The notes under the pieces: model-generated
Seen by the model: only the letters and a program-made list of their open reading frames with translations
Told to the model about the DNA's origin: nothing
Databases searched by the model: none
From: Candidatus Poseidoniales archaeon
GTDB lineage: Archaea; Thermoplasmatota; Poseidoniia; Poseidoniales; Thalassarchaeaceae
Length of the DNA: 64,000 bases
Direction of reading: 5' to 3'
Assembly: GCA_012960975.1 (NCBI GenBank)
Contig: DUAE01000039.1
Coordinates: 13,437-77,436, forward strand
In this document: positions 23,672-64,000 of the stretch, one piece after another
Layout: the number at the start of each line of letters is the position of its first letter
How positions within the stretch are numbered: the stretch's first letter is position 1
Made by a program: the position numbers and the translations under genes

Positions 23672-23775
23672 TGGTCCGCGCTCCCGGACTTGAACCGGGG
23701 ACCCCCTGATGGCTGCCTACAACCATGTGTTTTCAGTCTACAGTCAGGTGCTCTAGCCAACTGAGCTAAGCGCGG
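23672..23775 (-). tRNA. tRNA-Tyr (GUA) with a 27-nt intron at the canonical 37/38 position and a genome-encoded CCA
   Basis: Hand-folded reverse complement:
- Acceptor CCGCGCT/AGCGCGG (C1-G72, the archaeal Tyr identity pair).
- D arm GCTC-AGTTGGCTA-GAGC.
- Anticodon stem CCTGA/TCAGG.
- Anticodon loop CTGTAG|intron ACTGAAAACACATGGTTGTAGGCAGCC (23711-23737)|A.
- Variable loop GGGTC.
- T arm CCCGG-TTCAAGT-CCGGG.
- Discriminator A, then CCA. Confidence 0.9.
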
Positions 23776-61440: not shown

Positions 61441-62307
61441 ATGTCAGACACATTTACTGTTTATCTTCGTAATGACGAGAAAATTTTACTGATGCAGCGC
61501 GCCGACGAAGTCGCCGATTACCCAGGTGCTTGGGATGGAATATATGGTAACGGAGATCCTAATGATATCGATACTGTTGTCGCTCGCATCACCGAATCTA
61601 CTGGAATCCCAGCAGATCAACTCGAGTATGTTCGCTCCGGTGATGCTCGAGGCCTCGCGTTTGGAAACCGCTTGAATGATGTCTCCCCACTACTATTCCT
61701 CTCAGGAACTAACGAAGTTACTCCAAAGACTCTCTACAAGGGCTTCGAGTGGGTTGATCCTGGTACTATTGGTCAGAAGGAATACGCAACTCCAAAGTTG
61801 CGAGAAATGTACGGTGACGTTGCTTCTTACCTCTATATTCTCAAGACTAGTATAGGTCAGGAACAAAACGTAGCTCGAGAGATTCAAGCACGCCTTTCTG
61901 GTAGCGGATCTCTCGAAGACATTCAGGGTGAAATTTTTGGTGTTCTTTCACCGAATTTTATGCGCGGATATATTTTCGTTGAAGCTTCTGCACTACATCA
62001 CGTCGAGAAACTCATCGGACGCGTTGGAGTCGCTGCGACTCCAATGAAAAATTGTAGAAAAGTTCTCGACGGAGAATCACCGCTAGAAGATGTTCTTCCA
62101 TACTTAGAACCGAAAGCTGCTACAGCTGGAATAGAAGAAGGCTGTATCATCGAAATCAGTGGTGGCGCATTCAAGGGTCAACCGGCTCGTGTAGTTCGCG
62201 TTACTGAATCCAAGGAAGAGGTCACAGTCGAGCTGTTTGAAGCTCTAGTACCGGTCGCTCTGACTGTGCGCGCTGACCAAGTTCGCGTTACCCAGCGTGT
62301 TGAGTAA
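61441..62307 (+). CDS. spt5: Transcription elongation factor Spt5 (NusG) with a ~128-aa N-terminal Nudix-fold-like extension
   Basis: C-terminal 160 aa: NGN domain (YLYILKTSIGQEQNVAREIQ...MRGYIFVEA) plus KOW domain (GCIIEISGGAFKGQPARVVRVTESKEEVTVEL). The N-terminal 128 aa are in the same frame with no stop. A strong GAGGTGA SD sits 6 nt before ATG 61441. Confidence 0.85.
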   Translation: MSDTFTVYLRNDEKILLMQRADEVADYPGAWDGIYGNGDPNDIDTVVARITESTGIPADQLEYVRSGDARGLAFGNRLNDVSPLLFLSGTNEVTPKTLYKGFEWVDPGTIGQKEYATPKLREMYGDVASYLYILKTSIGQEQNVAREIQARLSGSGSLEDIQGEIFGVLSPNFMRGYIFVEASALHHVEKLIGRVGVAATPMKNCRKVLDGESPLEDVLPYLEPKAATAGIEEGCIIEISGGAFKGQPARVVRVTESKEEVTVELFEALVPVALTVRADQVRVTQRVE

Positions 62308-62391
62308 GCAATTTACAGGAGAACTCGTTGAATCAATCACTCTCAAATAGTGAAGGTAGGTCGGCGAGGCACAAATACAGGAGGTAAGCAC

Positions 62392-62670
62392 ATGTCAGCA
62401 AGAAATGAGACACCACACAAAGTGAATCAAGCTCTTGGCGTAGAGAGGTGCAACGGCTCCTGGGAAGAAGCATCTGAAAACTTGACAATGGTTCAAGTTA
62501 AGCAGCTTGCTGAGGATCAAAAGGACCGATTAACCGGTGCTGATTTGTACGCACGAAGCCGCGAAATTATGGGCACGTGTGTTTCTATGAGAGTCAAAGT
62601 TGAGGGCTTCGAACCAAAAGAAGCACTCAAGCGAATGAGCGAGGGGGAATTCAGCGAACACTTTAGCTGA
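62392..62670 (+). CDS. rpl11: 50S ribosomal protein L11, C-terminal (rRNA-binding) domain only (92 aa)
   Basis: NLTMVQVKQLAEDQKDRLTGADLYARSREIMGTCVSMRVKVEGFEPKEALKRMSEGEF matches the L11 C-terminal domain. CAGGAGGT SD before the ATG. There is no coding space for the N-terminal domain upstream. Confidence 0.8.
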   Translation: MSARNETPHKVNQALGVERCNGSWEEASENLTMVQVKQLAEDQKDRLTGADLYARSREIMGTCVSMRVKVEGFEPKEALKRMSEGEFSEHFS

Positions 62671-62682
62671 ATGATCACGAAG

Positions 62683-62711
62683 CGTGGGAGAGGGAAACCT
62701 CGTAGACCACG
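62683..62711 (+). promoter_or_regulatory. Stem - asymmetric internal loop - GAAA-tetraloop structure abutting the L1 Shine-Dalgarno (candidate L1 autoregulatory site)
   Basis: CGTGG-GA-GAGG-GAAA-CCTC-GTAGA-CCACG folded by eye. It is followed directly by GAGGTGAGATAA ATG (L1). Confidence 0.3.
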
Positions 62712-62723
62712 GAGGTGAGATAA

Positions 62724-63368
62724 ATGCAGAAAAATATCACAACAGCAATTGGACAAGCACTTGAGAACTCCCCCGAACGTAAGTTCGTAGAATCGATTGA
62801 AATGTCGATTACACTGAAGGATGTCGACCTAAAGAATCCTACAAACCGTATCCAAGAAGAAGTTCGTCTTCCTTCCGGTCGAGGTAAGGTCGTCCGTATC
62901 GCAATGTTCGCTGGTGGCGAGATGGCTGCGAAGGCACGTGCTGCTGGACTCGACGTTATCGAGCCTTCTGAGATTGAAGACCTTGGTGGGAACCGTCAGA
63001 AAGCACGGAAAATTGCTAATCAATACGACTTCTTCCTATCAGAAATCCCGCACATGGGAACCGTCGGACGATACCTCGGTGTTGTCCTCGGTCCGCGTGG
63101 TAAGATGCCACGCCCAGTACCACCGGCTCTAGACCCTGCAAATATCGCAACTGGCCTTCAGAGCACGGTTGTCGTGCGCTCGCGTGATAAGGTCACATTC
63201 CACACACTTCTAGGCTCACGTGAACTAAGTTTGGATGAAATAATTGCAAATGCAATGGCAGTTTGGAACCGTGTCATCAGTAGACTAGAGCGCGGTGCAG
63301 GAAACATTCGTTCATGTTACATCAAGACCACCATGGGTCCTGCTATCAAAGTCGAGGTGATTGAGTGA
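62724..63368 (+). CDS. rpl1: 50S ribosomal protein L1
   Basis: FVESIEMSITLKDVDLKNP, the ...PHMGTVGRYLGVVLGPRGKMP... motif, and its position between L11 and P0. Confidence 0.93.
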   Translation: MQKNITTAIGQALENSPERKFVESIEMSITLKDVDLKNPTNRIQEEVRLPSGRGKVVRIAMFAGGEMAAKARAAGLDVIEPSEIEDLGGNRQKARKIANQYDFFLSEIPHMGTVGRYLGVVLGPRGKMPRPVPPALDPANIATGLQSTVVVRSRDKVTFHTLLGSRELSLDEIIANAMAVWNRVISRLERGAGNIRSCYIKTTMGPAIKVEVIE

Positions 63369-64000
63369 TTGATTCTAAGGTTGCACCTTGGAAGCGAGAT
63401 CGTGTTAGCGAGCTCGCTGAAATTATCAACTCCGATGGAGTTGTAGGTATCGTCGATATCGGCGGAGTTCCAGCAGGAAATATGCTCAACATGCGCAGCG
63501 ATCTTCGTGGAAAATTAACCATGACCATGGCAAAGAAGACACTCATCAAGTTGGCTTGGGAACAATCCGGCCGTTCGTTGGATGAACTTGATACACTTTT
63601 CGATAATGCGGTTCAACCAGCTATTGTCCATACTAATGCACTCAACCCCTTCGAGTTATTTAGTGAATTAGAGAAAACTCGACAAGGTCGTGCTGCAAAG
63701 GAAGGCGAACTCGCACCTATGGACATCGTTGTCGAGCAAGGACCTACTTCATTTGGACCAGGTCCAATCGTCGGAGAGTTCAACGCTGTTGGAATTCCAG
63801 CAAAAATCGACAGAGGTAAAGTCGCAATTCAGAAAACTTCTACCGTTGTAAACCAAGGAGAGGCAATTTCTGCAGACCTTGGAATCATGCTAGCGAAGTT
63901 GGATATCTTTCCAATCGAAATCGGTCTAATATTGACCGGAGCAATCGAAGACGATTTCCTATTCCCAGCATCTGCTTTGAATCTCGATTTCAAGAAGTTC
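63365..64000 (+). CDS. rplP0: 50S ribosomal protein L10/P0, N-terminal 212 aa (runs off the right window edge)
   Basis: My translation from GTG 63365, which overlaps the L1 stop, gives VIDSKVAPWKRDRVSELAEIINSDGVVGIVDIGGVPAGNMLNMRSDLRG.... This is the typical P0 N-terminus (PeWK...V.EL), in the conserved L11-L1-P0 order. Confidence 0.85.
   Translation, partial: MIDSKVAPWKRDRVSELAEIINSDGVVGIVDIGGVPAGNMLNMRSDLRGKLTMTMAKKTLIKLAWEQSGRSLDELDTLFDNAVQPAIVHTNALNPFELFSELEKTRQGRAAKEGELAPMDIVVEQGPTSFGPGPIVGEFNAVGIPAKIDRGKVAIQKTSTVVNQGEAISADLGIMLAKLDIFPIEIGLILTGAIEDDFLFPASALNLDFKKF

What the first reader, a model, noticed from the sequence alone, without database searches (positions are those of the whole stretch)
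62308..62670. L11 gene encodes only the C-terminal domain; the N-terminal domain is absent from the conserved spt5-L11-L1-P0 locus
**What the ORF looks like.** The ORF after spt5 starts at ATG 62392 with a CAGGAGGT SD. The longest in-frame extension reaches only GTG 62350.

**What it aligns to.** From my memory of Haloarcula and Methanocaldococcus L11, its 92 aa align only from the interdomain linker onward:
- TPHKVNQALGVERCNGS aligns with PPTAELIKDEAGFETGSG.
- ENLTMVQVKQLAEDQ...IMGTCVSMRVKVEG aligns with ADLSVDQVKQIAEQK...VVGTCTSLGVTIEG.

**What is missing.** The ~65-70-aa N-terminal domain carries the PGPPLGPxLG motif and forms the GTPase-associated-centre/thiostrepton face. It has no coding space here. 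Only 84 nt separate the spt5 stop from the ATG, and I found stop codons in all three forward frames of that spacer.

**Why it matters.** A CTD-only (or split) L11 would be an unusual ribosomal stalk-base architecture.
Basis: partly seen in the sequence, partly recalled or inferred. Interest (0 to 1): 0.7.

Follow-up and report, generated by a model that had tools for sequence, protein, structure and literature searches.

The report
Ribosomal protein L11 missing half
In this marine archaeon and in hundreds of related Marine Group II species, the universal ribosomal protein L11 is encoded as only its RNA-anchoring half, so these abundant free-living microbes probably translate without the L11 domain that normally contacts translation factors and binds thiopeptide antibiotics.

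Summary
The ORF at 62392-62670 (+) encodes 92 aa. It matches only the C-terminal RNA-binding domain of uL11 (Pfam PF00298) and starts at the interdomain linker (residue ~73 of Pyrococcus L11).

- **Not an assembly error.** The same 92-aa gene, 58-86 nt after Spt5, is present in 93 of 93 loci examined. 340 GTDB species genomes carry it, including single-cell genomes and long-read MAGs, all Marine Group II (Poseidoniales).
- **Functional gene.** dN/dS is about 0.05. It has a conserved Shine-Dalgarno sequence and a conserved promoter-like block. The AlphaFold model superposes on M. jannaschii L11 CTD (TM 0.86).
- **No N-terminal domain found nearby.** Six-frame HMM and profile-profile searches of 1.7 Mb of MGII sequence around the locus found nothing. 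These loci sample under about 10% of a genome, so a relocated NTD gene or a full-length paralogue is not excluded.
- **Other lineages.** Other MGII subclades have 93- and 101-aa versions. Several DPANN lineages (Woesearchaeota, Aenigmarchaeota, Micrarchaeota) carry similar CTD-only genes.
- **Literature.** No paper in the searchable library mentions this.

Best reading: a lineage-wide loss of the NTD, a new variant of a known protein. It is moderately to highly interesting.

The parts
61441..62307 (+). Spt5 (NGN + KOW) carrying an N-terminal extension of about 130 aa that resembles a NUDIX domain. It is the upstream neighbour of L11.
   Evidence: Pfam Spt5-NGN E=4e-11 and TIGR00405 E=3e-32 on residues 132-286. 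Residues 1-130 give a weak NUDIX match, E=6e-4, that spans the full profile. The extension is conserved across MGII.
62308..62391 (+). The 84-nt Spt5-L11 spacer. It has stops in all three frames, a conserved promoter-like block at about 62336-62369 (ATCACTC TCAAATAG ... AGGTCGGCGAGG), and the Shine-Dalgarno sequence CAGGAGGT at 62378-62385.
   Evidence: The sequence is. Spacer length is 58-86 nt in 93 loci. The block is highly conserved at nucleotide level, and RNAalifold finds no consensus RNA structure. The promoter assignment is an inference.
62392..62670 (+). uL11 gene encoding only the C-terminal rRNA-binding domain (92 aa, MSARNETPHK...SEHFS).
   Evidence: Domain and structure evidence:
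- PF00298 is the only Pfam match.
- The protein aligns to L11 residues ~73-159.
- The AlphaFold2 model has pLDDT 87.
- The top Foldseek match is 5d8h_C, M. jannaschii L11, with TMq 0.86 and rmsd 1.4 A.

Conservation evidence:
- 144 clusters at 90% identity were found, almost all 92 aa.
- 340 GTDB species carry the gene.
- dN/dS is about 0.05.
62683..62711 (+). Conserved hairpin in the L11-L1 spacer (CGUGG GAGAGG-GAAA-CCUC GUAGA CCACG) that ends just before the L1 Shine-Dalgarno sequence. It is probably the L1 autoregulatory binding site.
   Evidence: RNAalifold on 33 divergent MGII spacers gives -16.8 kcal/mol. The outer helix covaries (GCGGG/CCGC versus GUGGG/CCAC). Assigning it as an L1 site rests on resemblance to the GGGAG...GACC L1 sites of Methanococcus, recalled from memory and not tested.
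62724..63368 (+). Ribosomal protein uL1, full length (214 aa).
   Evidence: Pfam Ribosomal_L1 E=1e-44. NCBIfam PRK04203 scores 260 bits against a cut-off of 203.
63365..64000 (+). Ribosomal protein P0 (uL10). It starts at a GTG that overlaps the L1 stop and runs off the end of the window.
   Evidence: In the identical locus L001 the complete gene is 341 aa. It has Ribosomal_L10, RL10P_insert and an acidic tail, and it is followed by P1. It carries no extra domain that could stand in for the L11 NTD.

Best explanation
The 92-aa ORF is the orthologous, functional uL11 of this Marine Group II archaeon (family Thalassarchaeaceae). It has lost the whole N-terminal domain by a deletion that ends at the interdomain linker. 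The loss became fixed early in MGII evolution.

**Shown here.**
- The gene sits in the canonical Spt5-L11-L1-P0-P1 position.
- It has its own Shine-Dalgarno sequence and a conserved upstream block.
- It is under strong purifying selection.
- Its product folds as the three-helix L11 C-terminal domain.

**Inferred from established L11 biochemistry.**
- The C-terminal domain alone binds and stabilises the 58-nt H43/H44 RNA of the GTPase-associated centre beside P0.
- The surface normally formed by the NTD is therefore simply missing. That surface makes the contact with aEF2, aEF1A and release factor, acts as the moving 'switch', and forms the protein wall of the thiostrepton/micrococcin pocket.
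- MGII ribosomes should therefore have an open stalk base and be intrinsically insensitive to L11-dependent thiopeptides. Factor recruitment would rest on the P0-P1 stalk and the sarcin-ricin loop.
For: - **Only the C-terminal domain is present.** Domain content is CTD only, starting at the linker. The fold is confirmed.
- **The locus is the same everywhere.** The ORF is exactly 92 aa and the spacer is 58-86 nt in 93 of 93 loci. The exact protein occurs on 22 contigs from separate assemblies. 340 GTDB species genomes carry this type, including SAGs AG-447-I14, AG-313-L18 and AH-273-K03 and long-read MAGs.
- **Other MGII subclades are also CTD-only.** They carry 93-aa and 101-aa versions.
- **The gene is under selection.** Median dN/dS is 0.047, with synonymous sites saturated in most pairs.
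- **No NTD was found nearby.** An HMM that scores real archaeal NTDs at E=1e-10 to 1e-32 finds nothing in all six frames of the window and 98 loci, 1.7 Mb in total. HHalign of the NTD profile against 106 conserved MGII gene families gives at most 1.7% probability.
- **Neighbouring stalk proteins are ordinary.** P0, P1 and L1 have normal length and domain content.
- **Literature.** L11ctd is the domain that binds the 58-nt GAR RNA. L11ntd raises thiostrepton affinity 100-1000-fold (PMC1802607). B. subtilis with rplK deleted is viable, slow-growing and fully thiopeptide-resistant (PMC11731312).
Against: - **Whole genomes were not searched.** The loci I could fetch sample only about 106 conserved gene families, which is under about 10% of an MGII genome. 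An NTD-only gene or a full-length paralogue elsewhere is therefore not excluded.
- **A possible conflict with Rinke et al. 2019.** They list 11 CheckM markers absent from all 270 MGII MAGs, and PF03946 is not among them. PF03946 is one of CheckM's 43 phylogenetic markers. I could not establish whether it is in the lineage marker set they screened. One contaminated MAG with a bacterial L11 would also keep it off an 'absent from all' list.
- **No direct evidence was available.** I had no expression, proteomic or ribosome-structure data, and no MGII 23S rRNA sequence to check H43/H44.
Confidence: 0.7

Rival explanations
1. Split or relocated gene. The N-terminal domain is still made, from a separate gene elsewhere in the genome or fused to another protein. 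It joins the ribosome in trans, so the stalk base is functionally complete.
For: The CTD gene starts exactly at the domain boundary, as split genes do. Whole genomes could not be searched. PF03946 is not on Rinke et al.'s list of markers absent from all MGII MAGs.
Against: - No NTD was found in any frame of the 64-kb window or of 1.7 Mb of orthologous loci from about 90 MGII genomes. Profile-profile comparison with 106 local gene families also found nothing.
- None of the adjacent stalk-operon proteins (Spt5, L1, P0, P1) carries an extra L11_N-like segment.
- In DPANN lineages with CTD-only L11, the gene abuts or overlaps Spt5, and no NTD lies within 10 kb.
- From established L11 biochemistry, the NTD is held on the ribosome mainly by its tether to the CTD. 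A free NTD would therefore bind poorly.
Confidence: 0.15
2. Paralogue. A canonical two-domain L11 exists elsewhere in MGII genomes, and the 92-aa protein is an extra copy that is specialised or works outside the ribosome.
For: The sequence is very divergent: 26 bits against Pfam, and 53 bits against a cut-off of 162 for NCBIfam. PGAP names it 'hypothetical protein'. Whole genomes were not searched.
Against: - It occupies the canonical orthologous slot between Spt5 and L1-P0-P1 in every MGII locus.
- From general knowledge, L11 is single-copy in archaea.
- Purifying selection is strong.
- It retains the GTCxSM RNA-binding helix and the archaeal C-terminal tail.
Confidence: 0.07
3. Artefact or decaying gene. 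On this reading the truncation is either an assembly or binning deletion, or the ORF is the remnant of a pseudogenised L11.
For: None was found. The idea was raised only because the source is metagenomic.
Against: - The architecture is identical in 93 of 93 loci and in 340 species, including SAGs and long-read assemblies.
- The length is an invariant 92 aa, with no frameshifts.
- dN/dS is about 0.05.
- The Shine-Dalgarno sequence and upstream block are conserved.
Confidence: 0.01

Closest known systems
Canonical archaeal uL11 (Pfam PF03946 + PF00298; NCBIfam NF002232/PRK01143), for example M. jannaschii L11 in the P-stalk base structure 5d8h and H. marismortui L11 in 1s72/4v9f
   Same: - Same operon position.
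- Same C-terminal three-helix RNA-binding domain (Foldseek TMq 0.83-0.86, rmsd 1.4-1.7 A, 33-36% identity).
- Same archaeal C-terminal tail (...EG.F.E.F).
- Same GTCxSM motif.
   Different: - It lacks residues 1 to about 72 entirely, that is the N-terminal domain with the PGPPLGP motif.
- The loop that is EKGSGxP in canonical L11 reads KCNGSWE here.
- The canonical SMG reads SMR here.
- It scores far below the equivalog cut-off, 52.9 against 162 bits.
L11-C76 / L11ctd, the engineered C-terminal fragment of bacterial L11 used for the L11-58-nt rRNA structures (1hc8, 1y39) and for NMR
   Same: Same domain boundaries and the same fold (TMt 0.79-0.84). The fragment shows that the CTD alone is the domain that binds and stabilises the GTPase-centre RNA (PMC1802607).
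   Different: L11-C76 is a laboratory construct. Here the truncated form is the natural, selected gene product of a whole archaeal order, and it carries the archaeal C-terminal extension.
L11-deficient or L11-NTD mutant bacteria selected by thiopeptides (B. subtilis with rplK deleted, Pro22 deletions, truncated S. aureus L11)
   Same: In both cases the NTD surface at the GTPase-associated centre is lost, which is tolerated and gives thiopeptide resistance (PMC11731312).
   Different: The bacterial mutants are laboratory-selected, costly, and usually lose the whole protein. MGII keeps the CTD under strong purifying selection and is an abundant free-living lineage.
CTD-only L11 genes in DPANN archaea (marine Woesearchaeota 89 aa, Aenigmarchaeota 138 aa, Micrarchaeota 93 aa, Ca. 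Tiddalikarchaeum 194 aa)
   Same: The gene starts at the linker, directly after Spt5, and no NTD lies within 10 kb.
   Different: They belong to separate sequence families. The DPANN versions keep a canonical EKGSG loop, and some add low-complexity C-terminal tails. They occur in reduced-genome lineages where loss of ribosomal parts is less surprising. The losses are probably independent, but I did not test that phylogenetically.

Membership tests
uL11 (ribosomal protein L11) family | C-terminal RNA-binding domain (Pfam PF00298) with the L11 CTD fold | tested here: met
   PF00298 scores 26.2 bits against a cut-off of 21.4. The AF2 model matches the L11 CTD of 5d8h_C with TMq 0.86.
uL11 (ribosomal protein L11) family | N-terminal domain (Pfam PF03946, PGPPLGP motif) joined to the CTD by a Pro-rich linker | tested here: not met
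   There is no PF03946 hit. The protein starts at the linker. No NTD was found in any frame nearby.
uL11 (ribosomal protein L11) family | Orthologous genomic position, Spt5/NusG - L11 - L1 - L10(P0) - L12(P1) | tested here: met
   Searches show the same order in all loci of this type. In the MGII 93-aa subclade, three membrane-protein ORFs are inserted between Spt5 and L11.
uL11 (ribosomal protein L11) family | Full-length equivalog score for archaeal L11 (NCBIfam NF002232, cut-off 162 bits) | tested here: not met
   The score is 52.9 bits, and only model positions 79-158 of 164 are matched.
uL11 (ribosomal protein L11) family | Binds H43/H44 of 23S rRNA in the assembled large subunit | not testable with these tools
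   This is inferred from fold and motif conservation only. No MGII 23S rRNA was present in the fetched loci, and no ribosome structure or proteome was available.
Split ribosomal protein gene (two genes encoding the two domains) | A second gene encoding the missing domain in the same genome | tested here: inconclusive
   None was found in the 64-kb window or in 1.7 Mb of orthologous loci. This covers under about 10% of the gene complement.

The most novel reading that the evidence does not exclude
Marine Group II archaea are among the most abundant free-living archaea in the surface ocean. On this reading, they and independently several DPANN lineages run translation on ribosomes whose GTPase-associated centre has no uL11 N-terminal domain at all. 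That would mean this universally conserved factor-contacting 'switch' domain is dispensable in nature. It would also mean these ribosomes are intrinsically immune to L11-dependent thiopeptides, perhaps as an adaptation to antibiotic-producing bacteria on marine particles. Compensation would lie in the P0-P1 stalk, the rRNA or the factors.
Probability: 0.6. Interest if true: 0.7.

Novelty: new variant of a known kind. Interest (0 to 1): 0.62.

Why it matters
- **A natural experiment on a universal protein.** uL11 is one of the universally conserved ribosomal proteins. Its N-terminal domain is the textbook contact point for elongation and release factors and the target of thiostrepton-class antibiotics. 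A whole order of abundant, free-living archaea that has dispensed with this domain shows what the domain is really needed for.
- **A testable prediction.** MGII ribosomes should show intrinsic thiopeptide insensitivity.
- **A practical consequence for genomics.** PF03946 is one of CheckM's 43 phylogenetic markers. The 92-aa protein fails NCBI's L11 equivalog model, so PGAP calls it 'hypothetical protein'. Completeness estimates, marker-gene trees and annotation of MGII and some DPANN genomes are therefore systematically affected.
- **Apparently unreported.** I found no paper in the searchable library that links L11/uL11 with MGII/Poseidoniales.

Tried and rejected
1. **Mis-assembly.** Rejected. 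The locus is identical in 22 contigs that carry the exact protein and in 93 of 93 loci from 340 species hits.
2. **NTD hidden upstream, in another frame, or inside Spt5.** Rejected. The six-frame HMM search is negative, the spacer is only 58-86 nt, and the upstream in-frame extension is not conserved.
3. **The Spt5 N-terminal extension as a relocated L11 NTD.** Rejected. It is a NUDIX-like domain covering the whole NUDIX profile. HHalign against the NTD profile gives at most 1.7% probability.
4. **Conserved MGII-only ORFs downstream of P1 as NTD substitutes.** This led nowhere.
   - The ORFs are 164 aa, 225 aa and a 92-aa membrane protein. None has a Pfam hit.
   - The 164-aa protein is MGII-specific. 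Its AF2 model has pLDDT 71. Foldseek gives only weak START/Bet v 1-like matches with TM about 0.3.
5. **The three ORFs between Spt5 and L11 in the 93-aa MGII subclade (L099).** They are membrane proteins, not an NTD.
6. **P0135 as a possible sister-lineage (MGIII) form.** This search was wasted. Its C-terminal two-thirds is eukaryotic L12e-like, so it is probably a chimeric or eukaryotic fragment. Whether MGIII has a full-length L11 remains unknown.
7. **An RNA structure in the Spt5-L11 spacer.** None was found, so I read the conserved block as a promoter or operator.
8. **Looking for an MGII 23S rRNA in the fetched loci, to inspect H43/H44.** None is present.
9. **Supplement of Rinke et al. 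2019.** It holds no mention of PF03946, PF00298 or L11.

Full report
**1. The observation**

The window between 59.9 kb and its end encodes FtsZ, SecE, Spt5, a short L11-like ORF, L1 and the start of P0, all on the + strand.

- Spt5 stops at 62305-62307, and the next ATG with a Shine-Dalgarno sequence (CAGGAGGT, 62378-62385) is at 62392.
- The 84-nt spacer carries stop codons in all three forward frames: TGA 62329, TAG 62348 and TAA 62385.
- The longest in-frame extension begins at GTG 62350.

**2. What the ORF is**

All profile matches are to the C-terminal domain of L11.

- Pfam finds only PF00298, the RNA-binding C-terminal domain of L11 (26.2 bits, cut-off 21.4). It finds no L11_N.
- The NCBIfam archaeal L11 equivalog matches only its positions 79-158 of 164, at 52.9 bits against a cut-off of 162.
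- A profile built from 20 orthologues aligns to residues 73-159 of P. furiosus L11, 76-158 of M. jannaschii L11 and 75-156 of H. marismortui L11. The protein therefore begins at the interdomain linker.

The predicted structure agrees.

- An AlphaFold2 model (pLDDT 87, pTM 0.79) superposes on the C-terminal domain of M. jannaschii L11 in the P-stalk-base crystal structure 5d8h (TMq 0.86, rmsd 1.4 A over 87 columns).
- It also superposes on H. marismortui L11 (TMq 0.83), and on the isolated bacterial L11-C76 fragments 1hc8 and 1y39.

**3. It is not an artefact, and it is not confined to this genome**

- A protein search returned 144 clusters at 90% identity. Almost all are exactly 92 aa, and they come from Candidatus Poseidoniales / Thalassarchaeaceae (Marine Group II) assemblies, including a 1.6-Mb contig.
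- The exact window protein is on 22 contigs from separate assemblies with identical gene order.
- A scan of one genome per GTDB species found 340 genomes that encode this type. The 80 best are all MGII and include single-cell genomes and long-read MAGs.
- In 93 of 93 loci the ORF is exactly 92 aa and starts 58-86 nt after the Spt5 stop. The in-frame upstream extension varies from 3 to 198 nt.
- The N-terminus MSARNETPH is nearly invariant.
- Median pairwise dN/dS is 0.047, and synonymous sites are saturated in most pairs.

The spacer holds a strongly conserved sequence block (ATCACnC-TCAAATAG-GGARAGyAGGTCGGCGRG) with no consensus RNA structure. I read it as the promoter/operator of the L11-L1-P0-P1 operon, which is an inference. 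Together these results show an expressed, selected gene whose start was fixed long ago.

**4. How wide the trait is**

An exhaustive HMMER search of 1.84 billion representative proteins found further CTD-only families. Two are also MGII.

- A 93-aa form (MPKPWTSH..., 272 members on more than 300 contigs) is named Poseidoniales.
- A 101-aa form is named Thalassarchaeaceae.
- In the 93-aa subclade, three membrane-protein ORFs lie between Spt5 and L11, but L11 is still CTD-only.

Outside MGII, CTD-only genes that start at the linker occur in several lineages.

- Marine Woesearchaeota have an 89-aa form that overlaps the Spt5 stop and is found on 141 contigs of up to 447 kb.
- Aenigmarchaeota have a 138-aa form directly after Spt5.
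- Such genes also occur in Micrarchaeota, Ca. Tiddalikarchaeum and one Aigarchaeota MAG.

Loss of the domain therefore looks recurrent. MGII is the large, free-living, non-reduced group in which it is fixed.

**5. Is the N-terminal domain elsewhere?**

This is the one part of the claim I could not settle.

- I built an NTD HMM from 21 sequences. An earlier five-sequence version scored real archaeal L11 NTDs at E=1e-10 to 1e-32.
- The 21-sequence HMM finds nothing in six-frame translations of the window plus 98 fetched loci, 1.7 Mb in total.
- HHalign of the NTD profile against alignments of 106 conserved MGII gene families from those loci gives at most 1.7% probability.
- L1, P0 and P1 have normal lengths and domains. 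The Spt5 extension is NUDIX-like, not L11-like.

However, the loci are all neighbourhoods of the same gene and sample under about 10% of an MGII gene complement. The tools did not let me read whole genomes.

One caveat comes from Rinke et al. 2019. They list 11 CheckM markers absent from all 270 MGII MAGs, and PF03946 is not among them. PF03946 is one of CheckM's 43 phylogenetic markers. I could not determine whether it belongs to the lineage set they screened. A single bacterial contaminant contig among 270 MAGs would also keep it off an 'absent from all' list.

From established L11 biochemistry, the NTD is held on the ribosome mainly through its tether to the CTD, so a trans-acting free NTD is mechanistically unattractive. 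I therefore put true loss at about 0.7, a relocated or split NTD at about 0.15, and a full-length paralogue at about 0.07.

**6. How it most likely works**

Shown here: the gene is the positional orthologue of L11, is under selection, and folds as the L11 CTD.

Inferred:

- The CTD binds and stabilises the H43/H44 58-nt RNA of the GTPase-associated centre next to P0. This is the established role of L11ctd (PMC1802607).
- The NTD lobe is absent. That lobe contacts elongation and release factors and forms the protein side of the thiopeptide pocket.
- L11ntd raises thiostrepton affinity 100-1000-fold, and ribosomes without L11 are far less sensitive (PMC1802607).
- B. subtilis with rplK deleted is viable but slow-growing, and it is completely resistant to a thiopeptide (PMC11731312).

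MGII ribosomes are thus predicted to be intrinsically insensitive to L11-dependent thiopeptides, and to rely on the P0-P1 stalk and the sarcin-ricin loop for factor recruitment. Whether rRNA, P0 or the factors carry compensating changes is unknown. A selective link to thiopeptide-producing marine bacteria is speculation.

**7. Comparison with what is known, and novelty**

- The closest known entity is canonical archaeal uL11. This protein meets the family's CTD, fold and synteny criteria. It fails the NTD criterion and the equivalog score.
- Functionally it resembles the engineered L11-C76 fragment, and the NTD-defective or L11-less thiopeptide-resistant bacterial mutants.
- Six literature searches found no paper linking L11/uL11 to MGII/Poseidoniales or describing natural CTD-only uL11. 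Subscription-only literature was not searchable.

I classify it as a new variant of a known kind: a clade-wide domain loss in a universal ribosomal protein.

**8. Verdict**

The trait is lineage-wide in a globally abundant archaeal order and recurrent in DPANN. What remains open is a whole-genome search for PF03946, which is a simple computation on public genomes. Interest is about 0.6. The finding is surprising to a ribosome specialist and directly testable. It is a domain loss rather than a new system, and total absence of the NTD is not yet proven.

Noticed in passing
window 61441-61830 (N-terminal 130 aa of the Spt5 ORF 61441-62307): Spt5 carries an N-terminal NUDIX-like domain (Pfam NUDIX E=6e-4, full profile coverage). 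The domain is conserved across MGII, where Spt5 is 271-316 aa, against 149 aa in DPANN. The Nudix box looks degenerate (...GIYGxGDPxDLDxVVARIxExTGI, lacking the REUxEE glutamates). A Nudix fold tethered to the RNA polymerase elongation factor is unusual.
   Followed up: partly
window 62683-62711 (L11-L1 spacer): A conserved hairpin, CGUGG-GAGAGG-GAAA-CCUC-GUAGA-CCACG, lies immediately before the L1 Shine-Dalgarno sequence. The outer helix covaries across MGII. It resembles the GGGAG...GACC L1-binding site of archaeal L1 mRNAs and 23S rRNA, so it is probably the L1 autoregulatory site. Rfam gave no match.
   Followed up: partly
window 62336-62369 (Spt5-L11 spacer): A sequence block, ATCACnC TCAAATAG GGARAGyAGGTCGGCGRG, is highly conserved across about 80 MGII species and has no predicted RNA structure. 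It is probably the promoter (TATA-like TCAAATAG) plus an unusually conserved stretch between the TATA-like element and the likely transcription start, which might be an operator.
   Followed up: partly
L001 12510-13004 (just beyond the window end, after P1); orthologue at L099 12536-13051: An MGII-specific protein of 155-170 aa is conserved in synteny right after the P1 stalk gene in both MGII subclades. It has many invariant Trp, Pro and Arg residues and no Pfam domain. The AF2 model has pLDDT 71, with only weak START/Bet v 1-like fold matches (TM about 0.3). Its function is unknown.
   Followed up: yes
window 23675-23775 (-): Rfam calls a 101-nt tRNA here (56 bits, full model). ARAGORN does not report it. 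This is consistent with an intron-containing archaeal tRNA.
   Followed up: no
P0147 (139 aa, from the representative search; not in the window): This L11 variant keeps the first ~25 residues with the PPLGPAL motif and then jumps straight to the linker and C-terminal domain. It may be an intermediate form of N-terminal-domain reduction. It is a single sequence of unknown taxon.
   Followed up: no
PMC6461757 (Rinke et al. 2019), methods: The CheckM markers reported absent from all 270 MGII MAGs include several translation-related ones: TIGR03677 (which I recall as L7Ae), PF01287 (eIF-5A domain), PF01849 (NAC) and TIGR00422. This suggests the MGII translation apparatus is divergent in more than L11.
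   Followed up: no
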